From sequence record PZ168832.1: a stretch of 64,000 nucleotides of DNA; one strand, given 5' to 3'. Both the position numbers and the translations under genes were made by a program. Numbering within the stretch: position 1 is the stretch's first letter; each line of letters starts with the position of its first letter. Positions 1-31,950 of this stretch are shown here, one piece after another. This stretch comes from a phage. The notes beneath the pieces were generated by a model that was given only the letters and a program-made list of their open reading frames with translations, ran no database searches and was not told the DNA's origin.

Positions 1-354
1 ATTATTAGAACTCATTGATGTAAAGATTTCTGCACCAGAACGGTTTTCACCAATCAGGTTAATAAAGCCGCCAGTTGAACGAGGCTGAACGAAAGTGAAA
101 CGTTGCATCCACGGAGTGCGGTTGGCACCTTTCCCTGTGAATCCTTGAATCTGAATATTCAGGCCTTCTTGCTCGTTCACACCGATGTAAGTGGTAATTG
201 TTGCGCCAGTCGTCGCTGCGGTCTTGCCGTCCATCGCTTCGCAATCGTAAACAGCGATTGAATCGGAAGTACGGACAGCGGCTTCAGTCGCTTCCATATA
301 CATGGTTCCGAGAATAGCAGTTGCGGCAAGCGCGATTCCAGTGATGCGTTTCAT
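1..354 (-). CDS. secreted hypothetical protein (3' end cut by window edge)
   Basis: Not in the ORF track because it runs off the edge. Minus-strand ATG at 352-354 follows an AGAGGAAA SD. N-terminus MKRITGIALAATAILGTMYMEATEAA looks like a Sec signal peptide. Frame stays open to base 1. Confidence 0.55.
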   Translation of the reverse strand, partial: MKRITGIALAATAILGTMYMEATEAAVRTSDSIAVYDCEAMDGKTAATTGATITTYIGVNEQEGLNIQIQGFTGKGANRTPWMQRFTFVQPRSTGGFINLIGENRSGAEIFTSMSSNN

Positions 355-419
355 TTTCGTTTCCTCTATGATTTCTGCTTCAATGATTAAAGTATACGCC
401 CATTGAAGCAGAAAGCAAA

Positions 420-1415
420 TTATTTATTAGCAATATAAGCAAATTTTTGATAGTTATTTGCTTTGATGAGTTTTTCAACTTCAACAAGGTCATGAGCTAC
501 GTCATCAAGCAAGATGTTGCGCCATGTAGCGAATCGGCCAACACTGAATACGTTCAAATCCATAGTCAGCTGGAGCAGTAAGGCGTGTCGCAAGTCTTTC
601 GGAATGTCGACAATCTTGCCATATTTCTGGTCGACCTTTTCAACTTCTTCAAGAGCAATGTCACTCCATGAGAGGCCAAAGGCTGTCAATACTTCGTCAA
701 CTTCTGCACGCAACTTAATGTCACGGTAACGAGTGATGCCGCCAGCGGCTTCAATTGCGGCTTCACTTACGCTAACCAAAGGAATTGTTTCAATGATCAA
801 TGTGTCGCCAGTGATTGATGCGCGGTAAGTTCTGACGGAGTAGTCAGGAAAGTAAATGGTTTGATACAGTTCACACTTGCGTTTAATCTTAAAGCGGTAA
901 ACACGAATGTTTGCCTTGTCGAATGAGAAATCAATCTTTTGATCAATCCCAGCAAGCTTCATTATGACTGGCAGCGGCGATGTGTTGATGATTGGCGTCT
1001 CGCTATAGCCGCAAAGAGTATCAACAGGAGTATTAAAGAATATGCGGTCACCCAGTTTGTCGACAAGCTGATCATAAAAGTCATCAGGCGCAATATAACG
1101 CGTTGCAGTTTTAAGCTTCATGATTGAACGGCTGCCAAACTGATTGGTGACCTTCATGGAATACATGTTGGCAAGGTTGATTGGGCAATGGTCGTGGTAG
1201 TAGTTGCCGCGAAAATACACAGCCTTGTCAACTGTCACTGCCTTAAAAGGGATTCCGGTAATACGGCTTACTTCTTCGCCGCGAAAGCGTAGCAGCGCCT
1301 TGTGCTGTGGCGCTCGCTCCCCTGCTTCGTACACAATAGAGTTCGGGAAGTGACACGCGGTAATAAGTCCTGCCAAACCGCCGCCGATAATCATTACAGG
1401 TTGTTTCATGTTCAT
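420..1415 (-). CDS. FAD/NAD(P)-binding oxidoreductase-like protein
   Basis: 331-aa ORF with N-terminal Rossmann fingerprint VMIIGGGLAGLITA (GxGxxG). AAGGA SD. The start could instead be Met3 (1409). Confidence 0.7.
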   Translation of the reverse strand: MNMKQPVMIIGGGLAGLITACHFPNSIVYEAGERAPQHKALLRFRGEEVSRITGIPFKAVTVDKAVYFRGNYYHDHCPINLANMYSMKVTNQFGSRSIMKLKTATRYIAPDDFYDQLVDKLGDRIFFNTPVDTLCGYSETPIINTSPLPVIMKLAGIDQKIDFSFDKANIRVYRFKIKRKCELYQTIYFPDYSVRTYRASITGDTLIIETIPLVSVSEAAIEAAGGITRYRDIKLRAEVDEVLTAFGLSWSDIALEEVEKVDQKYGKIVDIPKDLRHALLLQLTMDLNVFSVGRFATWRNILLDDVAHDLVEVEKLIKANNYQKFAYIANK

Positions 1416-1493
1416 TTGTCCTTTGTGGGTGATATGAGAAGTATAATAGCTAAATTATTTTACAGCAACAAGTCATTTCTATTTAGTACAGAC

Positions 1494-1521
1494 GAAAAAA
1501 GACCCACAACAAGTGTGGGTC
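1494..1521 (-). terminator. rho-independent terminator after the KAE-rich gene
   Basis: Minus-strand hairpin GACCCACA-CTTGT-TGTGGGTC followed by TTTTTT. Confidence 0.75.
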
Positions 1522-1549
1522 AATTACCGCTATATAACCGTCCTACAGG

Positions 1550-2389
1550 TTATTCCGCTTGATCACCGTCTTCGGCATTGTCGTTGGATTCAACATCGAC
1601 AAACTCGATGTGTCCCATCTCTTCCAGCTTGCTCAGGTAGGAGCGAACGGAAGCGCCAAACAGTTGATCTTTAACTTTCTCGCCCAGCTCATCGATAGAC
1701 TGTGCCACGCCAACTTCGCCTTCTTTGATCGCCGCCAGAACGCGTCCACGGGTGGAATGCTCTTGCGGCTGGCTCAGGCCATTGCCAGTGTAGATGAAGT
1801 GAGTGGCTTTTGCACGACGCTGACCGTTTGCCTTTTTAGCAGCCTTGCGCTCTGCGATAGCTTTGCGACGTTCTTCAGCTTCTTTCTTACGCTGTTCTTT
1901 CTGCTGTTCCGCAGCTTCTTTCGCCGCAATCTTAGCAGCTTCACGCTCTGCCTTGCGTTTCGCCTTGGCTTCTTCTTTGGCCTTCTCTTTTTCGGCCTTC
2001 GCTGCAGCACGGGCTTGATCACGCTCTGCTTTCTTAGCAGCAGCCTGCTCTGCTTTCAGGCGCTTGGCTTCTTCTTTAGCCTTTGCCTTTTCGATTTCTT
2101 TTGCTGCTTTAGCGGCTTCACGCTCTGCTTTCTTAGCAGCAGCCTTTTCTGCACGCTCTTTAGCTTTCTTAGCTGCTTCTTCAGCACGCTTCTGAGCCTT
2201 CTCATCAGCAGCCTGTTTGCGCTTCAGCGCGGCTTCTTCACGCTTGGCTTGTTTTTCCTGCTCACGCTTCTGGCGTTTTTCTTCGGCTTCTTTCTTTTTA
2301 GCCAGGCGTTTTTCTTCAGCCACGCGACGACGTTCTGCTGCGGCTGCTTGTTTTTCTTCTTTAGATAATACTTTGATTGCTTCGGCCAT
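1550..2389 (-). CDS. Lys/Ala/Glu-rich charged-helix protein with a globular C-terminal domain
   Basis: About 200 aa of K/A/E/R low complexity (AEEKRLAKKKEAEEKRQKREQEKQAKREEAALKRK...), then a non-repetitive C-terminus (...RVLAAIKEGEVGVAQSIDELGEKV...SYLSKLEEMGHIEF). AAGGA SD sits 8 nt before ATG 2389; the ORF track starts at GTG 2395. Confidence 0.65.
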   Translation of the reverse strand: MAEAIKVLSKEEKQAAAAERRRVAEEKRLAKKKEAEEKRQKREQEKQAKREEAALKRKQAADEKAQKRAEEAAKKAKERAEKAAAKKAEREAAKAAKEIEKAKAKEEAKRLKAEQAAAKKAERDQARAAAKAEKEKAKEEAKAKRKAEREAAKIAAKEAAEQQKEQRKKEAEERRKAIAERKAAKKANGQRRAKATHFIYTGNGLSQPQEHSTRGRVLAAIKEGEVGVAQSIDELGEKVKDQLFGASVRSYLSKLEEMGHIEFVDVESNDNAEDGDQAE

Positions 2390-2548
2390 ATTCACAGTCC
2401 TTAAATAAATTAGTTTATTTTATATTCCCCGTTTGGGATAACTTAATTATGCCTTCAGTCGCCGCCAGTAGCAACTAAAAACTATGGCGGCAATGCCACT
2501 TTAATTAAACTGATTTTCAGTTTTATTTTTCGTAAATTTACGTCAACA

Positions 2549-3733
2549 TTAACGCGCTTTCAAATCACGGTACACGGTCAGATTCTTCTTAGCACGGGTG
2601 ATAGCGGTGTACATCATCTTGGAGTACGGAACGCCGCGCAGGATTTCTTCCAGCACGCACACGTTGTCCCACTCGCTGCCTTGCGATTTGTGGACCGTGA
2701 TTACATAGCCATAGTCCATCCCGCCAACAGCGCGTTGAGCCTCTTTGCGCACTTCCTGATCAGTAGAGAAGGAAAGAGGATTAATCTTAACCTTTATATC
2801 TTTGCCATCGGTAAGCGAGCGCAAATTGACATACATGATTTCATTGGACTCGTCTTCGTCCCTTTCAAAGTCCGGCACTGGCTCATAGCTAATAACAATC
2901 CCTTGCTCGCCATTACAGAATCCTGGGCCGTGTTGGTTGAAGGTGCAAATAACCTTCTCGCCGATTCCTGGCATTGGCGTTATACGTCCGCTCACTTGCC
3001 GTAATAATGAATTCCATTTGTCTTTGGTGCTATTATAGGAGCAAATAATTTGATCATCTTCGCCCATGAATTTCTTCAATGCAGTAACGCGCGGCGATTC
3101 TGCCAACACTTTGACGTCATCATATTCACGCGGAGGAAGGCGGTTGCCTTGGCGCACGAAGAAGGAGGCGCGGATAATGTTGGACTCTTTCCCTTGCCGC
3201 ATGATTTCTGTTAACAGTACGTCAACGGCTTCTTCGGTAAAGTAGGCGGCGGCTTTTACCGGAGGGACTTGTCCAATGTCGCCTAATGCCAGGACAGGGA
3301 TGCGGTGATCAAGAAGGCGCTCTGTGTCCCACTCGCCAACCATCGACGCTTCATCGAGTACAACAAGGTGCGGCCTTTCATCCAGCTTTGACTTTCTCGA
3401 AAAGATTGGCTCATTGTCGTCATTTACGCCGCGCACGTTATAGATGAACTGGTGAAGGGTCTTAGCGCCACGACAGCCTTTTTGCTTTAATCGGCTTGCA
3501 GCCTTTCCGGTCGGCGCAATATAGATAGCGCCGTACTCACCGACACAGCGGCGCACAATCTCGCGAGCAATAGAGGTTTTACCAGTCCCTGCATAGCCAG
3601 CGATGAAAAACACGCGCTTCGTCGTTTTACCGTCCTGCAATCGCTTGTACCATGCAACGGCTTTCTCGATGGCGTCGATTTGTTGCGCGTTAAACTGAAT
3701 CACTGGCTCATCATTAAATTCTGGAATGTTCAT
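2549..3733 (-). CDS. Dda/RecD-like SF1 DNA helicase
   Basis: Walker A GYAGTGKTS, Walker B VVLDEASMV, C-terminal ITVHKSQGSEWDNV. GGAG SD. Confidence 0.85.
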   Translation of the reverse strand: MNIPEFNDEPVIQFNAQQIDAIEKAVAWYKRLQDGKTTKRVFFIAGYAGTGKTSIAREIVRRCVGEYGAIYIAPTGKAASRLKQKGCRGAKTLHQFIYNVRGVNDDNEPIFSRKSKLDERPHLVVLDEASMVGEWDTERLLDHRIPVLALGDIGQVPPVKAAAYFTEEAVDVLLTEIMRQGKESNIIRASFFVRQGNRLPPREYDDVKVLAESPRVTALKKFMGEDDQIICSYNSTKDKWNSLLRQVSGRITPMPGIGEKVICTFNQHGPGFCNGEQGIVISYEPVPDFERDEDESNEIMYVNLRSLTDGKDIKVKINPLSFSTDQEVRKEAQRAVGGMDYGYVITVHKSQGSEWDNVCVLEEILRGVPYSKMMYTAITRAKKNLTVYRDLKAR

Positions 3734-15681: not shown

Positions 15682-15797
15682 TTTGCCTGTGGAATGTGAG
15701 GCTTTTGTGGTTATTTACGATTCAAGGCTGTAATTTAAGAGAGCGAAAATATTATAATAATTTATCAAGATTATTGCATATTGTGGCAATCAACGTT

Positions 15798-16500
15798 TAT
15801 ACGTATTTATGACAGTTTAATCCACTAAATAATACGGATAGAACAGTGAGGAAAATACAGCGGTGTATTTTAGTGTAAATATTGAATCAAAAATAAATAA
15901 TTATGGTGCTATTATATACGCAGATTGTTTGTAATTTATAGGATATTTTATCGTGGAGTATTGGCTAACGGTGCGTTAGCCGTGGGTCTTGGTGCTTGTG
16001 GTGTTGATGCTCAGAATTTTAATAATGTTTTAGTTTTAGTAATCGTAGTCAATGATGATACGTATAAGAAAATGAGAGTCACCCCTTCACAGGATATTGT
16101 ACCGTGGCCCTGTGGTGCGCCGCGCCTGGGATTGCTGGTATACACTGGTGCTATTTTGCCGCGAAGGCAGTCATTCATACGTATCATGACGTATCATTGG
16201 GCTATTGATTTATAAGGAAAAATACGCTGATACGGATGATACGGGTGCAAACATAATATATATAGAATTCCAGAAAATTAATTAACTCCATTTTGAATTA
16301 ATTTAAATTAATTTTTTTCTACATCCTCATACTTATACTAAACTTATATTTATACGTATCATCCGTAAGATATAAGTAAAAACAAAGACTTGCGGCAATA
16401 CGGATGATACGTCATGATACGCTTCAACCAGCCATCTGCGGCTAAGTCATTGATTTGCATAACAAGCGGCGAAAGGGATGGATTTCTTTTATACGTATCA
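15798..16500. repeat. iteron cluster A: CGTATCATCCGTA / ACGGATGATACG units in both orientations around an AT-rich core (about 16250-16350)
   Basis: Units read at 15798, 15832, 16052, 16178-16197, 16229-16243, 16352-16367, 16398-16422 and 16491. The core contains GAATTC...AAATTAATT...TTTTTTT. Confidence 0.8.
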
Positions 16501-16586
16501 AACAGTACACCACGCACCACGGTCCGCAATCCACGCAGCATTATGATTTGTGTACATTTATAGCCATAATGAACATCAATCTGCAC

Positions 16587-16615
16587 TTGAATATAATGTC
16601 CATCCATTGTATAAT
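16587..16615 (+). promoter_or_regulatory. sigma70-like promoter upstream of terS
   Basis: TTGAAT (16587-16592), 17 nt spacer, TATAAT (16610-16615). Confidence 0.6.
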
Positions 16616-16650
16616 TCACACTATTAATTTGCACTATGGGATTTTGCACT

Positions 16651-17124
16651 ATGAGTCAAGACTATGTAGCGATGCCTGAAGACTTTGAAGACCCGCGATT
16701 TGCAGAGCACAATCAGGCTTTATTCGATGAGTTCATTGACCTTGTTATTCAGGGCCATGACATGCGCGCAGCTTTTGCACTAGTATTTGGAATGGAAGTT
16801 GCAACGGATAACTACACTGGACAGCGAATCCTTTGCGCGCAACGCAACCCATACTACAAAATGCGCTTCAAAAAGCGTATGGAAGAGATGCCACTCAAGG
16901 ATTTGTGGAGCGTAAAAGGTGCAATTCACAATTTGGTTAAGCTTGTGCGTGATCCAGAAGTCGCGGCGTCAGCCAAGCTTAATGCTATTCGCGAACTGAA
17001 TATCATCTACGGCATCACGATGATTGATGAAAACGGCAATAGTAAAATGGGCCGTTCCATGGACGATTTCTACAAGGATTTTGGAGAGGCAGCCAAAGAA
17101 GGCGAGCAATTCTCCCGCCACTAG
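16651..17124 (+). CDS. terS: terminase small subunit-like protein
   Basis: 157 aa. The segment PEVAASAKLNAIRELNIIYGI resembles the conserved helix of small terminases. N-terminal helical region. The ORF-track ATG 16636 lies inside the motif doublet and ATG 16651 is preferred. Assignment is by resemblance only. Confidence 0.5.
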   Translation: MSQDYVAMPEDFEDPRFAEHNQALFDEFIDLVIQGHDMRAAFALVFGMEVATDNYTGQRILCAQRNPYYKMRFKKRMEEMPLKDLWSVKGAIHNLVKLVRDPEVAASAKLNAIRELNIIYGITMIDENGNSKMGRSMDDFYKDFGEAAKEGEQFSRH

Positions 17125-17143
17125 CCAATTTGCACTATAAAAC

Positions 17144-17177
17144 GGCCCTAGAACACATCTTCTCCACTTCTAGGGCC
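17144..17177 (-). terminator. 10-bp perfect hairpin; likely terminator of the leftward island operon (and possibly of terS)
   Basis: GGCCCTAGAA-14 nt-TTCTAGGGCC. On the minus strand it is followed by GTTTTATAG. There is no U-run on the plus side. Confidence 0.55.
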
Positions 17178-17238
17178 GTCGGTAATACGACGGGGAAGGT
17201 TGCAACCGTAAACGCGTTAGAAAGTGTATTATTATAAG

Positions 17239-17502
17239 TCATCTTTTAGTCACCTTACGTAACAATTTACGACCTTCAGCCGTCCAATCGAACGACTCCA
17301 CCAGCAGATTCGCACTATAACCTAAGATGATGCGCCCTTTCTCGTTATCGACCCGCCAACAAGTCTCGAATAGCATTCGATTTGCACTATTAACTATCGC
17401 CGCAACGCGCGTAGGGTAAACGCAATTTGCACTATGGTCATAAAGGGATAAGGTGCGACCACTTCCGATGGACAACGTAGCGATGAGAATGAGCGTATTC
17501 AT
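17239..17502 (-). CDS. hypothetical protein with a signal-peptide-like N-terminus
   Basis: 87 aa with GGTGG SD. MNTLILIATLSIGSG.... Contains three in-frame copies of the reverse-complemented 12-mer (HSAN, NSAN, YSAN). Confidence 0.45.
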   Translation of the reverse strand: MNTLILIATLSIGSGRTLSLYDHSANCVYPTRVAAIVNSANRMLFETCWRVDNEKGRIILGYSANLLVESFDWTAEGRKLLRKVTKR

Positions 17503-17552
17503 AAGCCACCAATTTGCACTATGAAAAGCGACCCCGAAGGGCCGCCATTCGA

Positions 17553-18179
17553 TTAGATAATCTGGAAGGTGTAGGACTTGTTGCCGAACTCGAAGTTCAA
17601 GCGCCCAGCTTCCTTAAGCTTCATGCGGAAGCGAATATGTTTGCTATCCGGTAAGCCCAGCGCGGCGAACGCTACGCGGACCGATTTGAACTCTCCTACA
17701 CCCTCGACCATAACGCCGTTACGGGTAAGACGCTTTTGCGCCACTTCCTTATTATCCCAACTTTTTGCAATGCCTTCGCTATTCGAACGGCGATGGGAAG
17801 GAGTTCCGTTTTGCACTACGCAATTTGCACTATCGTTTAAACCGCTCTTAACGAAGGCTTCATACTCTTCGTCGGTCATCGCGTCGAGTTCTTCCTGCGT
17901 CGGCTCGGCCTTTTTAACGACCGCACGCGCCTTATGCGTTTTTACATCGCTGGACACTTCCTCGCGCGGCTTCGCGTCGGGGATGGGCGATTCGTTGGAC
18001 GGCTCATCGAGCGCGTTTAAGGACTCGATTAACGCGATTACGCGAGTCTCGGCGGTCCGGCGGTCCGAAAACTTCTTAATCGGTTTTGAGCCGGAATTTG
18101 CATTATAGAATGCAACGAGGTCGGCGGTCTTAGTTGCGATAACGTCGCCGCTAGTCGAGAAGCGATTTAAGCTAACCAT
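17553..18179 (-). CDS. hypothetical protein (possible DNA-binding protein of the island)
   Basis: 208 aa with AGGAG SD. Has a protein-like composition, an acidic/Pro-rich linker and a basic C-terminal domain (KRLTRNGV...SVRVAFAALGLPDSKHIRFRMKLK). Confidence 0.6.
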   Translation of the reverse strand: MVSLNRFSTSGDVIATKTADLVAFYNANSGSKPIKKFSDRRTAETRVIALIESLNALDEPSNESPIPDAKPREEVSSDVKTHKARAVVKKAEPTQEELDAMTDEEYEAFVKSGLNDSANCVVQNGTPSHRRSNSEGIAKSWDNKEVAQKRLTRNGVMVEGVGEFKSVRVAFAALGLPDSKHIRFRMKLKEAGRLNFEFGNKSYTFQII

Positions 18180-18259
18180 AATAAACTCCTATTTGTTAGG
18201 GCGCTAGGCGCGAAAGAATTTTATTAAAGCGCCGCGCACGACGCTCTAAAAATCCTCTC

Positions 18260-18544
18260 TTACGCTTCGACGAGGGAGAAGGTTTCAAATTCTTCTTCTC
18301 CCATAACGAGTAAAATATTCCCGATTTCGACCGCTTCGAAGAAGTATCCGTTAACGTTTACTTCGAATGATTCGCGGTCCGATTCCGGTAACGCCGCGTA
18401 AAGTTTAAAAGCCTCGGCGACCGTTACCCCACCCGCTTCAATAGTTTGATCTACGTTCGCGGCGTAGACTTCGGATAAATTTTGTTTTACGCCGTAGTTC
18501 TCGACGATAGCGTTACGGATAGAAGAAACGTTAAGAATAGCCAT
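18260..18544 (-). CDS. acidic small protein, island paralogue A1
   Basis: 94 aa with AGGAG SD. Paralogous to 19176-19466 (EVYAANVDQTIE / SVYLSNVDATIE; VNVNGYFFEAVEIG / VTINGFVYTITEIG). Confidence 0.6.
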   Translation of the reverse strand: MAILNVSSIRNAIVENYGVKQNLSEVYAANVDQTIEAGGVTVAEAFKLYAALPESDRESFEVNVNGYFFEAVEIGNILLVMGEEEFETFSLVEA

Positions 18545-18559
18545 TTTAAACTCCTAGTT

Positions 18560-18596
18560 GGGATAGGCGTTAACGACCTATTCGTTAACTCATCCC
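18560..18596 (-). other. conserved structured 5' leader (copy for A1)
   Basis: On the transcript: outer stem GGGAT/ATCCC and inner stem GTTAACGA/TCGTTAAC with loop ATAGG, just upstream of ACTAGGAG. Confidence 0.5.
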
Positions 18597-18612
18597 GTCC
18601 CGATATGAGTAC

Positions 18613-18640
18613 ATTATAATATAGTGTAGAAAAAAGTAAA
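18613..18640 (-). promoter_or_regulatory. island promoter P-L1
   Basis: TTTACT, 16 nt spacer containing TTTCTACACT, then TATAAT (minus strand). Confidence 0.6.
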
Positions 18641-18684
18641 GCACTTTTTCGATAAAAATGCGATAAATTATTTTATCTTTTTTC

Positions 18685-18712
18685 TTTACTTCTTCGTACA
18701 CTCGCGTATACT
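18685..18712 (+). promoter_or_regulatory. island promoter P-L2
   Basis: TTTACT, 16 nt spacer containing TTCGTACACT, then TATACT. Followed by GTTTATATCGAGACGGG, which is shared with the other copies. Confidence 0.6.
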
Positions 18713-18767
18713 TGTTTATATCGAGACGGGCGATGGCCTTTCTTCTACTAGCATCGGGAGCTTTATT

Positions 18768-19070
18768 ATGACTACTTTGATCTCTTCCATCCTTACTTAC
18801 GACGAAGACCGCTTAACCGTTCGCTCTCTTATCGCCGCCGTTAACGCGGAACTAGAATCTAGCGCCATTAAGGTCCGCGCGGTCGCCTTCATCGGCCTTT
18901 CCTTCGACGATATGAAGTACGCCGAACGTAGCGCCATCCGCTTCACGAAGACCGACGACGAAGCCGTTACCCTTATCGAGACGGTTACGCCGCGCGACGA
19001 AGCGTTAATTATCATCGAGTATATCGATATAGAAGGTGATAAAGCTTATAAATATTTTATCGCAAAATAA
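18768..19070 (+). CDS. acidic small protein, island gene B (possible distant paralogue of A1/A2)
   Basis: 100 aa with GGGAG SD. N-terminus MTTLISSI resembles MITLSAI and MAILNVSSI. Confidence 0.6.
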   Translation: MTTLISSILTYDEDRLTVRSLIAAVNAELESSAIKVRAVAFIGLSFDDMKYAERSAIRFTKTDDEAVTLIETVTPRDEALIIIEYIDIEGDKAYKYFIAK

Positions 19071-19081
19071 CGAAAAATTGC

Positions 19082-19110
19082 TTTACTTATTCGTACACTA
19101 AGACTATAAT
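19082..19110 (+). promoter_or_regulatory. island promoter P-L3
   Basis: TTTACT, 17 nt spacer containing TTCGTACACT, then TATAAT. Confidence 0.6.
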
Positions 19111-19121
19111 GTTTATATCGA

Positions 19122-19154
19122 GAGGGATGAGGAAGCGAATAGGTCGCTACCCTC
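19122..19154 (+). other. conserved structured 5' leader (copy for A2)
   Basis: Outer stem GAGGG/CCCTC and inner stem (A)GCGA/TCGC(T) with the same loop ATAGG, upstream of ACTAGGAG. Confidence 0.5.
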
Positions 19155-19175
19155 CCGACTAACTAGGAGAATATT

Positions 19176-19466
19176 ATGATTACTTTATCCGCTATCCGCG
19201 CCGCTCGCGTCGAAACTTCCGAAAACTCTAATGTATTTGGCGAAACCTTAGAGAGCGTTTATCTCTCTAACGTAGACGCGACTATCGAGTCTATTTATGA
19301 ACCGATCAACTTCCTCGACCTTTACAAGTATCGCGACGAGGACGTAGCATCCTACCGCGTAACGATTAACGGCTTCGTCTATACGATTACCGAAATCGGC
19401 GGCGAATATCTCGCGATCCCGCAACTCGGCGGAGAAGTGACTTATTTTAAAATCGTAAGCCTTTAA
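19176..19466 (+). CDS. acidic small protein, island paralogue A2
   Basis: 96 aa with AGGAG SD. Paralogue of 18260-18544. Confidence 0.6.
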   Translation: MITLSAIRAARVETSENSNVFGETLESVYLSNVDATIESIYEPINFLDLYKYRDEDVASYRVTINGFVYTITEIGGEYLAIPQLGGEVTYFKIVSL

Positions 19467-19477
19467 GGAGAAGAAAA

Positions 19478-19687
19478 ATGACTAATATGAATAACTCTCT
19501 TAACGCGCGCGCCCATCGTACCGCCGTCATCGATATGTTCCGCGAACTTAAGGAATTATGCGATAATATGAACGCGATGTTATCCATCGGCGGCTGGGGA
19601 TACGAAGAAGAGGTTAAATACGCGGTTATGCGTCGTAAGCGCGATAACGTCCTGGGACAAATTAAACGCGCCGGATTATTCCTTTAA
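19478..19687 (+). CDS. hypothetical small protein, island gene C
   Basis: 69 aa with AAGGAG SD. Confidence 0.55.
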   Translation: MTNMNNSLNARAHRTAVIDMFRELKELCDNMNAMLSIGGWGYEEEVKYAVMRRKRDNVLGQIKRAGLFL

Positions 19688-19713
19688 TTATAATTACCCA
19701 CCGTTACTAATAG

Positions 19714-19738
19714 GCCGCGCTTAGTCGCGGCTTTTCTT
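19714..19738 (+). terminator. rho-independent terminator of the rightward island operon
   Basis: GCCGCG-CTTAGT-CGCGGC followed by TTTTCTT. Confidence 0.7.
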
Positions 19739-19857
19739 CGTCCCTATTTCGATGCGCTTCTCCGCGAAAACTCCTTTATCCTTCCCTTCGTCGTCGCATA
19801 ATCTTCTTCGAGATGCTCCTTAGTTCGCATAACAGGTATTACGTTAAATGGAGAACA

Positions 19858-19931
19858 TCGCGTAAGTCCTTGTTTTATATAGACACCTATATCGGACCGT
19901 TAGGGCGGGTCGCGTAAGTCGTTGTTTTATA
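19858..19931 (+). repeat. two 22-bp direct repeats TCGCGTAAGTC(C/G)TTGTTTTATA
   Basis: Copies at 19858-19879 and 19910-19931, 52 bp apart, in non-coding DNA. Confidence 0.8.
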
Positions 19932-20056
19932 AAGGCGCAAAACTTTCCCTTCGTTCCGAACTAAAACGAGGAATATGCCGACCCTTCGTCCGAAAATAGT
20001 ACGCATGCGAAATTACATGCATCTAGAATAATCCCCACCGATATTATCCTACACGC

Positions 20057-20119
20057 AATCATTCGCTTTCGAATCATTATGCTTCATATTGTTATGCGTC
20101 AAATCATTCGCTTTCGAAT
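20057..20119 (+). repeat. two 18-bp direct repeats AATCATTCGCTTTCGAAT
   Basis: Copies at 20057-20074 and 20102-20119. Each contains the dyad ATTCG-CTTT-CGAAT. Confidence 0.8.
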
Positions 20120-20332
20120 TGTAACGCTGGAAACTGTAACGGCTATTGATTATTGCGTTCGTGTGGTTTTTATGGCATGGGTCTTTTGGTGCGTTTTGGT
20201 ACTTGATGGAATTTGCGGTACACTAATCAAAATACGACACATTTGGTCCACTAACTTTTCAAAGAAAAAGTCCCAGACAGTACCGTACTATTTTGTACCC
20301 ACAGTAAATTTGCAGTACACTCCTGCGCGGCA

Positions 20333-20361
20333 GGCAAAATAAAGGGCCGCCACAGCGACCC
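20333..20361 (-). terminator. rho-independent terminator ending the leftward accessory block
   Basis: Minus strand GGGTCGC-TGTG-GCGGCCC (one G-U pair) followed by TTTATTTTG. Confidence 0.6.
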
Positions 20362-20391
20362 ACGATTCACGGTTAAATCAACAAGCACCCA

Positions 20392-20772
20392 CTATTCACT
20401 CTTATGGGCATCACCAAAGCCATCCGCAATCTGGCTGATCAGCGATTCAATGGACACAGTTTTACCAATTGATCGAGCGGTAATAGCAAGCATATTATCA
20501 ATCAAACCATGATTGGATGCATATGATCCAGGTTTTGAATCATCTTCAGAACAACCAAAAAGCTGGTCGCGCAGACTTTCAAGAGAACGCTCAATATTTT
20601 CCAACTTCTCTTCTAAATCGGATTGGCGACGTAAAACCCACGTCAAGTCACGGTTGCCAACTTCCAATCCATCAGAATAGCAAGGTGGAGCGTCAATTTT
20701 GATGCTGGAACCAAAAGCAATGCCGCTGCCTTTAGTATATGTGTGACTCATAGAATCATTTTTATTTGACAT
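20392..20772 (-). CDS. hypothetical protein
   Basis: Internal ATG (MSNKNDSMSH...) with GAAGG SD. ORF-track start is 20838. Confidence 0.55.
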   Translation of the reverse strand: MSNKNDSMSHTYTKGSGIAFGSSIKIDAPPCYSDGLEVGNRDLTWVLRRQSDLEEKLENIERSLESLRDQLFGCSEDDSKPGSYASNHGLIDNMLAITARSIGKTVSIESLISQIADGFGDAHKSE

Positions 20773-20847
20773 ATCGTTACCTTCAATATTTGGGTGATTA
20801 ACAATAAGTATAATAAAGCCGCATAGCGCGGCATTCAAATCGATTTA

Positions 20848-21096
20848 TTAATTGTGACGATTGGATTCATCAATCGATACCAATTGTGCAGGGTCGCCGG
20901 ATACAGTTGCGCCGATGATGCCCATCTGAGAGAAAAATTCTGAATAAACTTCCTTCCAGTACTTACGCGCTGCTTTCTGGGCTTGTCCTTTGCGCTTGAA
21001 GCTTTTGCCTTGAAAGATGAAACGGTCTTTTGGCGCGGAATACTCCACCACACCTTCCAGCCATTGTAAGAATGCTACTGATTCATTTTGATTCAT
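20848..21096 (-). CDS. hypothetical protein
   Basis: 82 aa with TGAGGA SD. Confidence 0.5.
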   Translation of the reverse strand: MNQNESVAFLQWLEGVVEYSAPKDRFIFQGKSFKRKGQAQKAARKYWKEVYSEFFSQMGIIGATVSGDPAQLVSIDESNRHN

Positions 21097-21103
21097 ATAA
21101 TCC

Positions 21104-21505
21104 TCAATATTTTAATAAGAAAGCGCCCAACCAACTTTCCTCAATCTCGCGGCCAGTAGCCACACGGTCGGTCTTTGCTATGGGTCTGGATTCGCCGCAG
21201 GGTAATCCGTCTTGTAGCTGTGTACTATTGCCAATTCTCACCAAAACCTTTCCATCAGGGTCGATATAAGCGCGACAACCCATGATTTCGAGTCGCTGTA
21301 GACACTGGCGAATCGTTTTCAGCTTCTCACCGGACCGGATAGAGCGTGGTCGCGACCGCGACCGCTGACCGTTCTTATTCACTGTACGCTTGAAAACCGG
21401 AATATCATTGGTGCGTTGTGGCTTGGGTCGGTAGTAGGCTTCTTCACCAGGAGTTGCGCCTGGTGTCAGTTCGCGCTTAAGCGCCTTTTCGATATCGATG
21501 ATCAT
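21104..21505 (-). CDS. hypothetical basic protein
   Basis: 133 aa with an Arg/Ser-rich centre (GQRSRSRPRSIRSG). Confidence 0.55.
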   Translation of the reverse strand: MIIDIEKALKRELTPGATPGEEAYYRPKPQRTNDIPVFKRTVNKNGQRSRSRPRSIRSGEKLKTIRQCLQRLEIMGCRAYIDPDGKVLVRIGNSTQLQDGLPCGESRPIAKTDRVATGREIEESWLGAFLLKY

Positions 21506-31672: not shown

Positions 31673-31950
31673 CGCGTATAATGACGTATCATCCGTATCA
31701 AGTAAGTAGTTGTTTTCAAAAGAATCTTACGGATGATACGGATGATACGCGTTGCCGCGATACTTTATAGGAATTCAAATAAATTAATTTAAAATTATAT
31801 ATCTAATTTAATTTTATTTTTTTATAAACTCTTATATATGAAAAGTATCCGTATCATCCGTATCATCCGTAGCACACCAGTGATAGCGCGGCTTATACAC
31901 CGATACGGATAAAAATACGCCTCATTTTATCCGTATCATCCGTATCACAC
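31673..31950. repeat. iteron cluster B, colinear with cluster A
   Basis: ATGACGTATCATCCGTATCA (31681), TTACGGATGATACGGATGATACGCG (31728), AT-rich core 31765-31840 with GAATTC...AAATTAATTTAAA...TTTTTTT, GTATCCGTATCATCCGTATCATCCGTAG (31845), CGATACGGATAAAAATACG (31901), ATCCGTATCATCCGTATCAC (31929). Confidence 0.85.

What the first reader, a model, noticed from the sequence alone, without database searches (positions are those of the whole stretch)
19741..20332. A 590-bp non-coding tail of the island packed with several independent direct-repeat families
Between the island terminator (19714-19738) and the terminator of the leftward block (20333-20361) there is no convincing ORF. The segment contains:
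- TCGCGTAAGTC(C/G)TTGTTTTATA twice (19858 and 19910, 52 bp apart).
- CCCTTCGT-containing boxes three times (19784, 19947, 19982). The last two extend to CCCTTCGT(T)CCGAA..AAA.
- AATCATTCGCTTTCGAAT twice (20057 and 20102), each containing an ATTCG/CGAAT dyad.
- TGTAACG twice (20120-20141).
- Two AATTTGC(G/A)GTACACT boxes (20210 and 20307). These combine the core of the 12-mer array with the GTACACT spacer element of the island promoters.

This density of short repeats in untranslated DNA suggests a cis-acting site, such as a replication origin, a partition or packaging site, or a regulatory hub. It could instead encode one or more small RNAs.
Basis: seen in the sequence. Interest (0 to 1): 0.5.

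Follow-up and report, generated by a model that had tools for sequence, protein, structure and literature searches.

The report
Inner boundary of phage terminal repeat
This conserved untranslated stretch holds the point where the phage's 3.9-kb terminal repeat ends, flanked by a 15-bp-spaced array of short motifs that is probably the signal telling the packaging enzyme where to cut the genome.

Summary
The repeats are real, sit at the stated coordinates and exceed chance. There is no gene and no sign of a structured RNA.

The window is a Wifcevirus-like E. coli myophage. By homology to four records with mapped ends, its direct terminal repeat (DTR) is 16290-20186. The finding is therefore the last 446 bp of the DTR plus the first 146 bp of unique DNA, and the physical right genome end (GGGTCTTT|TGGTGCG, 20186|20187) lies inside it.

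The segment changes 3-4 times more slowly than four-fold degenerate sites of neighbouring genes and shows no codon periodicity. It is DNA under purifying selection.

This is the strongest lag-15 signal in the whole 64-kb window. The array, the cut position and the first AATTTGC.GTACACT box (+24) recur in four distant lineages. One is Pantoea phage Kyle, whose recorded DTR boundary falls in the same alignment column.

Best reading: a terminase recognition and cleavage site for a long-DTR phage. Binding by the small terminase (TerS) and the direction of packaging are inferred. The DTR was already published; the array and its conservation appear not to have been described.

The parts
16290..20186 (.). 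It carries the small-terminase gene (16651-17124).
   Evidence: Mansfield position 1 (PhageTerm DTR 1-3673) aligns to window 16290. Ro157lw, WFH and SP13 carry two identical copies that end at the same sequence. The TerS gene matches PDB 7UXE, the E217 small terminase, at E = 7e-34.
19712..19738 (+). Intrinsic terminator closing the rightward DTR genes
   Evidence: Found by the terminator scan. It is invariant in 19 relatives and kept in L033.
19741..20186 (.). Untranslated inner end of the DTR; it is also the last 446 bp of the virion DNA at its right end
   Evidence: Divergence is 0.048 per site, against 0.10-0.21 at four-fold sites of flanking genes. There is no codon periodicity.
19858..19931 (+). 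Box A pair, TCGCGTAAGTCNTTGTTTTATA (19858-19879 and 19910-19931), 52 bp apart
   Evidence: Repeat score 19, against a shuffle maximum of 14. Both copies are kept in all 19 relatives. By eye in the L033 sequence, the core TCNCRTAAGT recurs about 50 bp apart. It is not recognisable in Kyle, L034 or L035.
19945..20003 (+). Box B pair, (TT)CCCTTCGT(T)CCGAA (19945-19960 and 19980-19995). The second copy runs into the left arm AAAATAGTACG (19993-20003) of an 11-bp inverted repeat.
   Evidence: CCCTTCGNCCGAAAATAGT is also present in L035, whose TerS is 47% identical. The inverted repeat is I4.
20042..20150 (+). Degenerate 15-bp-period array with core AAYCATT. Units start at 20057, 20072, 20087 (degenerate), 20102, 20117 (AATTGTA) and 20132 (AACTGTA).
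   Evidence: AAYCATT occurs 3 times against 0.13 expected. Autocorrelation z is 3.8 at lag 15 and 5.2 at lag 45. The five best lag-15 windows of the whole 64-kb window are 19981-20190. The same array is present in L033, L034, L035 and Kyle. The Bas100 deletion removes exactly 45 bp, or 3 units.
20179..20192 (.). Right boundary of the DTR and right physical genome end: GGGTCTTT|TGGTGC, cut between 20186 and 20187
   Evidence: The boundary sequence is the same in Mansfield (PhageTerm), Ro157lw (PhageTerm), WFH and SP13. Kyle's boundary falls in the same alignment column. WFC's record ends 82 nt further on.
20196..20233 (+). Conserved block just outside the DTR: TTTGGTACT (20196-20204), then box E1, AATTTGCGGTACACTAATCAAAAT (20210-20233). 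E1 starts 24 nt after the cut.
   Evidence: TTT.GTAC and AAT..ACAC..TCA.AA are invariant or nearly so across six sequences whose TerS identity falls to 43%. The +24 spacing is identical in Kyle.
20284..20321 (+). Right arm CGTACTATTTT (20284-20294) of the 11-bp inverted repeat, and box E2, AATTTGCAGTACACT (20307-20321)
   Evidence: I4, D4. Both arms are invariant in the genus, and 9 bp of each are kept in L033. E2 is not conserved beyond L033.
20333..20361 (-). Intrinsic terminator of the leftward gene block
   Evidence: Terminator scan. L033 instead has a hairpin plus T-run at the position homologous to about 20262-20305 (read from the sequence; not folded).

Best explanation
The segment is the inner junction of the phage's roughly 3.9-kb direct terminal repeat with unique DNA. 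It most likely acts as the cis site where terminase recognises the replicated DNA and makes the cut that creates the right genome end.

Its conserved core has three parts:
- a 15-bp-spaced array of near-palindromic heptamers (AAYCATT, roughly AATSATT) on the DTR side;
- the cut, about 40 bp beyond the last clear unit;
- a conserved TTTGGTACT / AATTTGC.GTACAC block starting 10-24 bp beyond the cut on the unique side.

The proposed mechanism is that a DNA-binding packaging protein occupies the array and the distal box and positions the large-subunit nuclease between them. This would work as in lambda cosB, SPP1 pacL/pacR or the P1 pac hexamers. The most economical candidate for that protein is the ring-shaped small terminase encoded in the same DTR.

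Shown: the repeats, the absence of coding, purifying selection, the position of the DTR boundary, and conservation of the array, cut column and distal box across genera.

Inferred: that terminase, and specifically TerS, binds here; whether the cut starts or ends packaging; and how the DTR is duplicated.
For: 1. The DTR boundary lies in the segment. Four Wifcevirus records end the repeat at ...GGCATGGGTCTTT|T(T)GGTGCG, which is window 20186|20187. Two of them were mapped with PhageTerm (PMC6753283; PMC6454146). WFC and WFH carry 'about 3.7 kb' repeats (PMC6563267).
2. Pantoea phage Kyle belongs to another genus (TerS 43% identical) and its record carries both copies of a 3603-bp DTR. Its boundary falls in the same alignment column, and the AATTT....GTACACTAATCA box starts at +24 in both phages.
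3. The 15-bp array is the strongest lag-15 signal in the 64-kb window. The homologous spot is also the locus-wide maximum in L033, L034, L035 and Kyle. AAYCATT is enriched 15- to 90-fold in each gap. In Kyle about 12 units run to within 12 nt of the cut.
4. The DNA is constrained but not coding. Divergence is 0.043 per site, against a mean of 0.15 at four-fold sites, with no 3-base periodicity and broken ORFs.
5. There is no RNA signal, no good promoter, and no DnaA or IHF site.
6. The architecture TerS(+) / leftward genes / rightward genes / terminator / 500-650 bp untranslated gap / leftward block is kept in all the distant lineages.
7. A true small terminase is encoded in the DTR.
Against: - No binding, cleavage or packaging experiment exists for any of these phages.
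- The related E217 TerS showed no appreciable DNA binding in vitro (review PMC9611059).
- Within the genus, the boxes are no better conserved than the spacers.
- Bas100 lacks three array units, so the full array is not essential.
- The sequence at the cut itself is not conserved in L034 or L035.
- No motif is shared between the left (16290) and right (20186) boundaries, so one recognition rule does not explain both ends.
- WFC's record places the boundary 82 nt further right.
- The ends of this particular phage were not measured; they are transferred by homology.
- An iteron-like array is also what an origin would look like.
Confidence: 0.55

Rival explanations
1. Replication origin: the 15-bp array would be a set of iterons for a phage or host initiator, with the moderately AT-rich 20000-20056 stretch as the unwinding element.
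For: The motif array is periodic, in one orientation, and varies in copy number between lineages. The DNA is constrained and non-coding.
Against: There are no DnaA boxes and no IHF or GATC sites, and no initiator-like gene nearby. The 20000-20056 stretch is the least conserved part. A 15-bp period is shorter than typical 17-22-bp iterons (general knowledge). The array's fixed position next to the mapped genome end in two genera is explained by packaging, not by an origin. A better origin-like candidate lies elsewhere: GATACGGATGATACG boxes flanking an AT-rich core at 31685-31946.
Confidence: 0.12
2. A T5-type signal at the inner end of the terminal repeat. It would be a protein-binding region that pauses or controls DNA entry, or protects or processes the incoming end, like the untranslated Repeat Region 3 / injection stop signal of T5.
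For: The layout matches T5. T5 Repeat Region 3 is untranslated, lies mostly in the LTR, overruns 270 bp into unique DNA, and is better conserved than many LTR ORFs (Davison, bioRxiv 10.1101/866236). Here 446 bp lie inside the DTR and 146 bp outside. The stretch aligns in all 19 relatives, while neighbouring DTR stretches align in only a third to a half of them. The DTR carries small genes behind strong sigma-70-like promoters.
Against: The paired DnaA boxes and the 131-bp inverted repeats that define the T5 region are absent. Two-step DNA transfer has not been reported for these myoviruses. The DTR encodes a small terminase rather than obvious host-takeover genes.
Confidence: 0.08
3. Regulatory hub: binding sites for a phage transcription factor that insulates or regulates the convergent transcription units. 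The AATTTGC.GTACACT boxes would be related to the GTACACT element in the DTR promoter spacers.
For: Four of the six GTACACT copies in the window lie in 18696-20321, two of them in promoter spacers. A 69-aa protein of a PHROG family annotated 'transcriptional regulator' is encoded immediately upstream.
Against: The stretch holding that gene aligns in only about a third of relatives, while the tail aligns in all. No promoter of 10/12 or better lies in the segment. The segment sits between two terminators where nothing needs regulating. The 7-mer cores occur at chance frequency.
Confidence: 0.1
4. One or more small RNAs are transcribed from the segment.
For: The segment is conserved and non-coding. 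Weak 9/12 promoter-like matches lie on the minus strand at 20178-20043.
Against: No Rfam match at E <= 1. MFE z-scores lie between -2.0 and +1.7 on both strands. There is no strong promoter. The one candidate hairpin (20001-20022) is disrupted by ATG->CGA in about half of the relatives.
Confidence: 0.04
5. Non-functional spacer: relic duplications in DNA that merely separates two convergent operons, conserved only because the genus is young.
For: Within the genus the boxes are no better conserved than the spacers. Bas100 tolerates a 45-bp deletion. Most families have only two copies.
Against: The segment evolves 3-4 times more slowly than four-fold sites of the adjacent genes. The array, the cut column and the E1 box persist in lineages whose TerS is only 43-68% identical.
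Confidence: 0.06

Closest known systems
Terminase recognition sites built from short repeats next to the cut: lambda cosB (R1-R3 bound by gpNu1), SPP1 pacL/pacR boxes around pacC, P1 pac hexamer sets flanking the cut (from established knowledge, not retrieved here)
   Same: The motifs are short, repeated and oriented. They lie within about 150 bp of the position where virion ends are made. There is conserved sequence on both sides of the cut. A small-terminase gene lies in the same region.
   Different: The product here is a multi-kb exact terminal repeat, not cohesive ends or a headful series. The spacing is a regular 15 bp with 6 to about 13 units. Binding by TerS is untested, and the nearest studied homologue (E217 TerS) bound DNA poorly in vitro.
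T7-group terminal repeat flanked by arrays of short repeats (SRL/SRR) and pac elements at the concatemer junction (from memory: Dunn & Studier 1983; Chung & Hinkle 1990)
   Same: Both have an exact direct terminal repeat with fixed ends. Both have arrays of short imperfect repeats abutting a repeat boundary. Both must duplicate the repeat during packaging.
   Different: The repeat is 160 bp in T7 and 3.9 kb here. The T7 arrays lie outside the repeat on both sides, whereas here the array is inside the repeat at one boundary only. The two terminases were not compared here.
T5 LTR untranslated Repeat Region 3 / injection stop signal (Davison, bioRxiv 10.1101/866236)
   Same: Both are large untranslated, repeat-rich blocks at the inner end of a long terminal repeat that overrun into unique DNA. 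Both are conserved more consistently than many repeat-encoded ORFs.
   Different: There are no DnaA-box pairs, no long inverted repeats and no palindrome nest. The region is half the size. Two-step injection is not known for this phage group.
Pbunavirus (PB1/E217-like) packaging
   Same: TerS is homologous (PDB 7UXE, E = 7e-34), and the TerS gene lies far from TerL.
   Different: Pbunaviruses are reported as circularly permuted and terminally redundant, i.e. headful packagers (PMC12345254). This group has fixed ends and an exact 3.5-3.9-kb DTR.

Membership tests
Terminase recognition/cleavage site (pac/cos-type cis site) | Lies at or next to the position where mature virion DNA ends are generated | tested here: met
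   The DTR right boundary maps to 20186|20187 by homology to four records, two of them mapped with PhageTerm, and to the same alignment column in Kyle. It was not measured on this phage's own reads.
Terminase recognition/cleavage site (pac/cos-type cis site) | Contains repeated short motifs suitable for multimeric small-terminase binding, conserved among relatives | tested here: met
   A 15-bp AAYCATT array, enriched and periodic in five lineages.
Terminase recognition/cleavage site (pac/cos-type cis site) | Bound specifically by the small terminase | not testable with these tools
   Needs EMSA or footprinting. The E217 homologue bound DNA poorly in vitro.
Terminase recognition/cleavage site (pac/cos-type cis site) | Required in cis, and sufficient on a plasmid, for cutting and packaging | not testable with these tools
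   A genetic or transduction assay is needed.
Iteron-type replication origin | Array of directly repeated initiator-binding sites | tested here: inconclusive
   A periodic array exists, but with a 15-bp period and a 7-bp near-palindromic core. No initiator is known.
Iteron-type replication origin | DnaA boxes or IHF sites, and an adjacent conserved AT-rich unwinding element | tested here: not met
   No DnaA, IHF or GATC sites. The AT-richer 20000-20056 stretch is the most variable part.
Iteron-type replication origin | Initiator or replication gene next to the site | tested here: not met
   Neighbouring proteins have no Pfam hits and only unknown-function or 'regulator' PHROGs.
T5-type injection stop region | Large untranslated repeat region at the inner end of the long terminal repeat, overrunning into unique DNA | tested here: met
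   446 bp inside and 146 bp outside the DTR, compared with T5 Repeat Region 3.
T5-type injection stop region | Paired DnaA boxes within long inverted repeats | tested here: not met
   No DnaA boxes. The longest exact inverted repeat is 11 bp.
T5-type injection stop region | Two-step DNA transfer | not testable with these tools
   No experimental data for Wifcevirus were found in the papers read.
Small regulatory RNA | Own promoter and terminator, stable or conserved structure, or a known family | tested here: not met
   No Rfam match, unremarkable folding z-scores, and no promoter of 10/12 or better.
Protein-coding gene | ORF intact in relatives, with third-position-biased substitutions | tested here: not met
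   no periodicity, stop codons, and lost start codons. Any ORF crossing 20186 would be truncated in the right-end copy of the DTR.

The most novel reading that the evidence does not exclude
The array may be a natural substrate for the 'wrapping' model of small-terminase action. In this reading, one near-palindromic AATSATT heptamer every 15 bp (6 to about 13 units) is read by successive DNA-binding domains of the decameric TerS ring. The distal TTTGGTACT / AATTT..GTACAC box then fixes the register so that a terminase of headful ancestry (Pbunavirus-like) cuts at one exact position. This compact, portable module would be what converts headful packaging into exact multi-kb terminal repeats. It would make the long-unresolved question of how long DTR ends are generated directly testable in an E. 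coli phage.
Probability: 0.15. Interest if true: 0.7.

Novelty: new member of a known kind. Interest (0 to 1): 0.42.

Why it matters
How phages with multi-kilobase exact terminal repeats define and duplicate their ends is poorly understood. One of the papers that mapped this DTR says the mechanism for long repeats is unknown (PMC6454146).

This analysis pins the right-hand cut of one such family to a roughly 200-bp conserved module: the array, the cut and the distal box. The module is shared by E. coli, Pantoea and uncultured relatives. It sits in phages that grow on engineered E. coli K-12 derivatives (restored O-antigen, cryptic prophages removed; BASEL Bas98-101) and whose small terminase has a solved homologue.

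That gives a concrete fragment for binding, cleavage and plasmid-packaging assays.

It also has practical uses. Several records are opened arbitrarily or annotate spurious CDSs across the boundary, so it helps set genome starts and avoid those calls. It also matters for rebooting or engineering these phages, where exact ends must be preserved.

Tried and rejected
- **Second copy of the cut-site sequence upstream of the left boundary.** 15983-16020 against 20178-20215 gave a local alignment score of 28, against a shuffle mean of 22.1 +/- 2.8 and a maximum of 38. Not significant.
- **Shared motif at both DTR boundaries.** The only candidate was the 11-mer GGCTATTGATT (16200 and 20141). The right copy reads GGCGATTGATT in all relatives and the left region is not conserved, so I treat it as chance.
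- **DnaA, IHF and Dam sites.** None found.
- **RNA signals.** Rfam and tRNA/tmRNA searches found nothing. Sliding-window RNA folding was unremarkable.
- **Host origin.** No similarity in 5,426 E. coli genomes.
- **Boxes against spacers within the genus.** 21% against 24% variable columns, p = 0.45. Divergence is too low for this test to decide anything.
- **E boxes as promoters.** The spacing and hexamers are poor by eye, and the scan does not flag them.
- **Link of the E boxes to the 12-mer AATTTGCACTAT.** They share only a 7-8-nt core, which occurs at chance frequency.
- **TTCG-N2-4-CGAA dyads.** Four cluster here. They come from the two duplicated boxes, and the dyad is lost in L033, so I did not pursue them.
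- **Collection scans for more divergent relatives.** The box A pattern in IMG/VR returned only the same genus. GCTTTCGAATN{50,80}TTTGGTACT in IMG/VR and in metagenomes returned close relatives plus chance matches.
- **The route that worked.** TerS homologues, then a TerS alignment scanned against IMG/VR.
- **Loci L174-L176** (TerS 42% identical) lack the lag-15 signal at a comparable position. I did not analyse them further.
Full report
**Identity of the window**

The region 19000-21500 is 92-94% identical to 29 phage records, all from the genus Wifcevirus or close to it. These are E. coli/Shigella myoviruses of 66-72 kb, including vB_Eco4M-7, ECML-117, FEC19, WFC/WFH, Mansfield and BASEL Bas98-101. 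The literature calls them distant relatives of the Pseudomonas Pbunavirus (PB1-like) phages (PMC11990801). No tRNA genes and no Rfam families were found.

**Checking the observation**

The 592 bp contain four ungapped direct-repeat pairs scoring at least 10. Dinucleotide shuffles give 0.28 +/- 0.52, and none of 500 reached four. The best pair scores 19, against a shuffle maximum of 14. TGTAACG, AATTTGC and GTACACT taken alone occur at chance frequency in the window.

The segment is not coding:
- Variable sites in 19 relatives show no 3-base periodicity (p = 0.2-0.8). Three neighbouring genes give p = 8e-18, 2e-26 and 3e-3.
- The 87-aa ORF has stop codons in most relatives.
- The 39-aa ORF that Mansfield annotates loses its start in two relatives and its stop in one. 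Nearly all its changes, apart from the lost stop, alter the amino acid.

Annotators disagree on small CDSs here, and most call none.

**What the 'island' is**

Mansfield's record annotates a 3,673-bp direct terminal repeat (DTR) predicted by PhageTerm, and the genome is opened at its boundary (PMC6753283). Position 1 of that record aligns to window 16290.

Three other records carry both copies of the repeat with zero mismatches between them: Ro157lw (3,533 bp, mapped with PhageTerm; PMC6454146), WFH (3,701 bp) and SP13 (3,899 bp). All four start the repeat at ATTTT(G/A)AA and end it at ...GGCATGGGTCTTT|T(T)GGTGCG. In the window this gives a DTR of 16290-20186.

WFC's record ends 82 nt further on (...CAAAGAAA|AAGTCC). 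This discrepancy is unexplained. Korf et al. report 'about 3.7 kb' for WFC and WFH (PMC6563267).

The finding is therefore the last 446 bp of the DTR plus the first 146 bp of unique DNA, and the right physical genome end lies inside it.

The DTR also encodes a true small terminase at 16651-17124. It matches PDB 7UXE, the decameric TerS of Pbunavirus E217, at E = 7e-34. Pbunaviruses themselves are reported to be circularly permuted headful packagers (PMC12345254).

**Is the DNA functional?**

The tail aligns in all 19 fetched relatives. By contrast, the stretch just upstream (about 19500-19700, holding the gene 19478-19687) aligns in only about a third of them. The roughly 600 bp left of the left boundary aligns in very few.

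The tail's divergence from the window sequence is 0.043 per site (0.048 inside the DTR, 0.031 outside). Four-fold degenerate sites of eight flanking genes give 0.10-0.215, with a pooled value of 0.15. The tail therefore evolves at the pace of codon positions 1 and 2, without being coding.

Three other signals are absent:
- RNA folding z-scores are ordinary on both strands.
- No promoter match of 10/12 or better lies in the segment.
- There are no DnaA, IHF or GATC sites.

Within the genus, the named boxes are no better conserved than the spacers. Everything is conserved at this low divergence, so more distant relatives were needed.

**Distant relatives**

TerS homologues led to three metagenomic contigs:
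- L033: TerS 68% identical, on a 72.5-kb contig.
- L034: TerS 51% identical.
- L035: TerS 47% identical.

A TerS alignment scanned against IMG/VR then found Pantoea phage Kyle (Kylevirus, TerS 43% identical).

All four keep the same layout: TerS(+), leftward genes, rightward genes, a terminator, a 500-650-bp untranslated gap, then a leftward block.

Alignment of the gaps shows which parts survive deep divergence:
- the unit ATTAGCTTTCGAAT;
- GTTAGTGTGG;
- TTTGGTACT;
- the first AATTT....GTACAC..TCAAAA box.

Box A, box B, the 11-bp inverted repeat (19993-20003 / 20284-20294) and the second E box are recognisable only as far as L033. The one exception is CCCTTCGNCCGAAAATAGT, which also appears in L035.

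**The array**

In the window the units start at 20057, 20072, 20087 (degenerate), 20102, 20117 (AATTGTA) and 20132 (AACTGTA).

AAYCATT counts in the gaps, against the expectation from flanking DNA:

| Lineage | Observed | Expected |
|---|---|---|
| window | 3 | 0.13 |
| L033 | 2 | 0.14 |
| L034 | 5 (both strands) | about 0.3 |
| L035 | 8 | 0.09 |

Kyle has about 12 units, and they end 12 nt before its DTR boundary.

Lag-15 autocorrelation z-scores are 3.8 in the window (5.2 at lag 45), 2.2 in L033, 4.3 in L034 and 7.7 in L035.

In an unbiased scan, the five best 150-nt windows of the entire 64 kb are 19981-20190, at 0.42-0.46 against a mean of 0.27 and an sd of 0.04. The homologous spot is also the locus-wide maximum in L033, L034, L035 and Kyle.

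The only indel in the genus alignment of this part is Bas100's 45-bp deletion, which is exactly three units.

**The cut**

Kyle's record carries two identical copies of a 3,603-bp DTR. Its boundary reads ...TAATCATTGAGTGTGCCCTT|GACCGCGATTTAGTACCTGGTCCAATTTCACAGTACACTAATCAGAAT. It falls in the same alignment column as the window's ...ATGGGTCTTT|TGGTGCGTTTTGGTACTTGATGGAATTTGCGGTACACTAATCAAAAT. The E1 box begins at +24 in both.

End determinations recorded for two genera therefore coincide to the nucleotile relative to the conserved flanks. The bases at the cut itself differ in L034 and L035. This suggests, by inference, that the cut position is set by the flanking sites rather than by the cut sequence.

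**Interpretation**

The best-supported reading is a cis-acting genome-end formation site. A repeat array lies on the packaged (DTR) side and a conserved box on the other side of a fixed cut. This works like lambda cosB, SPP1 pacL/pacC/pacR or the P1 pac hexamers.

Its position resembles two other known cases. One is the repeat arrays that abut the T7 terminal repeat. The other is the untranslated Repeat Region 3 at the inner end of the T5 LTR, which also overruns into unique DNA and is better conserved than many LTR ORFs (bioRxiv 10.1101/866236).

Three steps remain inferred:
- that the DTR-encoded TerS is the binding protein;
- whether this cut starts or ends packaging;
- how the repeat is duplicated.

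Points against, or limits on, this reading:
- E217 TerS bound DNA poorly in vitro.
- No motif is shared with the left boundary.
- The ends of this particular phage were transferred by homology, not measured.

**Rivals**

- An origin is the main rival because the array looks like iterons. It lacks DnaA and IHF sites, a conserved AT-rich element and a nearby initiator gene. It also does not explain the fixed relation to the genome end.
- A T5-like entry signal shares the layout but not the defining DnaA-box and inverted-repeat features.
- A regulatory hub, small RNAs and neutral spacer DNA are each contradicted by specific results.

**Novelty and score**

The DTR of these phages is published. 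I found no description of the untranslated boundary zone, the 15-bp array or its conservation across genera in the papers searched. It is a new example of a known kind of element, in a class of packaging (long exact DTRs) whose mechanism is still open. That gives moderate interest.

Noticed in passing
window 16229-16411 and 31685-31946: The 15-mer GATACGGATGATACG has 11 matches (up to 3 mismatches) against 1.2 expected, and ten of them lie in two clusters. Three copies bracket the left DTR boundary (16290). Seven flank an AT-rich core at about 31770-31840, in a 620-bp intergenic gap of the structural module. That core resembles the left-end sequence (TATAG(G)AATTC..AAATTAATTTAAA..ATTTTTTT..CTTATAT). 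It could be an origin, a second terminase or regulator site, or a phage promoter element.
   Followed up: partly
window 16613-18106: The 12-mer AATTTGCACTAT has 10 copies (0-2 mismatches). All are on the + strand and all lie inside the DTR, starting just upstream of and overlapping the start of the small-terminase gene. Only 4 other weak matches exist in the remaining 60 kb. It is a candidate binding array, but I did not test its conservation in relatives.
   Followed up: partly
window 16651-17124: The small-terminase gene lies inside the terminal repeat, about 360 bp from the left genome end. It is a homologue of E217 TerS (PDB 7UXE, E = 7e-34). Each virion therefore carries two copies. The same position (357-361 nt from the end) holds in Mansfield, WFC, SP13 and Pantoea phage Kyle.
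   Followed up: yes
window 15700-16230: The untranslated roughly 600 bp just left of the left DTR boundary aligns in only 2 of the 19 fetched relative loci (coverage 0.11). About a third of those loci start at the DTR and so cannot show it. The last roughly 60 nt before the boundary, including one GATACGGATGATACG-type box, are kept in WFC and Ro157lw. This contrasts sharply with the universally conserved right boundary zone.
   Followed up: partly
window 20362-20375 (between the leftward terminator and the stop of gene 20392-20772): A 7-bp unit (ACCCACG / CACGACC) varies in copy number among relatives. The window has one, F13, SP13 and Bas99 have two, and Mansfield has four or five.
   Followed up: no
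L002/L003 (WFC, MK373777) 3784, equivalent to window about 20268: WFC's deposited terminal repeat ends 82 nt further right than in Mansfield, Ro157lw, WFH and SP13, at ...TTCAAAGAAA|AAGTCC. This is either an imprecise end call or a real second cut position.
   Followed up: no
window 19478-19687: This 69-aa gene belongs to PHROG 10377 ('transcriptional regulator'). The stretch holding it aligns in only about a third of relatives, so it appears to be an accessory gene directly upstream of the conserved tail.
   Followed up: partly
window 19993-20003 and 20284-20294: A perfect 11-bp inverted repeat, AAAATAGTACG / CGTACTATTTT, brackets the array, the cut and the E1 box. Both arms are invariant in the genus, and 9 bp of each are kept in L033. 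Its function is unknown.
   Followed up: partly
L033 13090-13135; window about 20262-20305: In the 68%-TerS relative, the conserved AAAAAG..GACAGTACCGTACTATTT block forms a clean hairpin (AGCCCTGG...CCAGGGCT) followed by a T-run on the minus strand. This looks like the leftward terminator. In the window the sequence is kept but the stem is not, and a different terminator (20333-20361) has taken over. This was read by eye from the sequence and not folded.
   Followed up: no
L177 (Pantoea phage Kyle MN038177) 3438-3641: The annotated CDS KYLE_8 (67 aa, minus strand) lies on the 15-bp array and crosses the DTR boundary at 3603. It would be truncated in the right-end copy, so it is probably a spurious call.
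   Followed up: no
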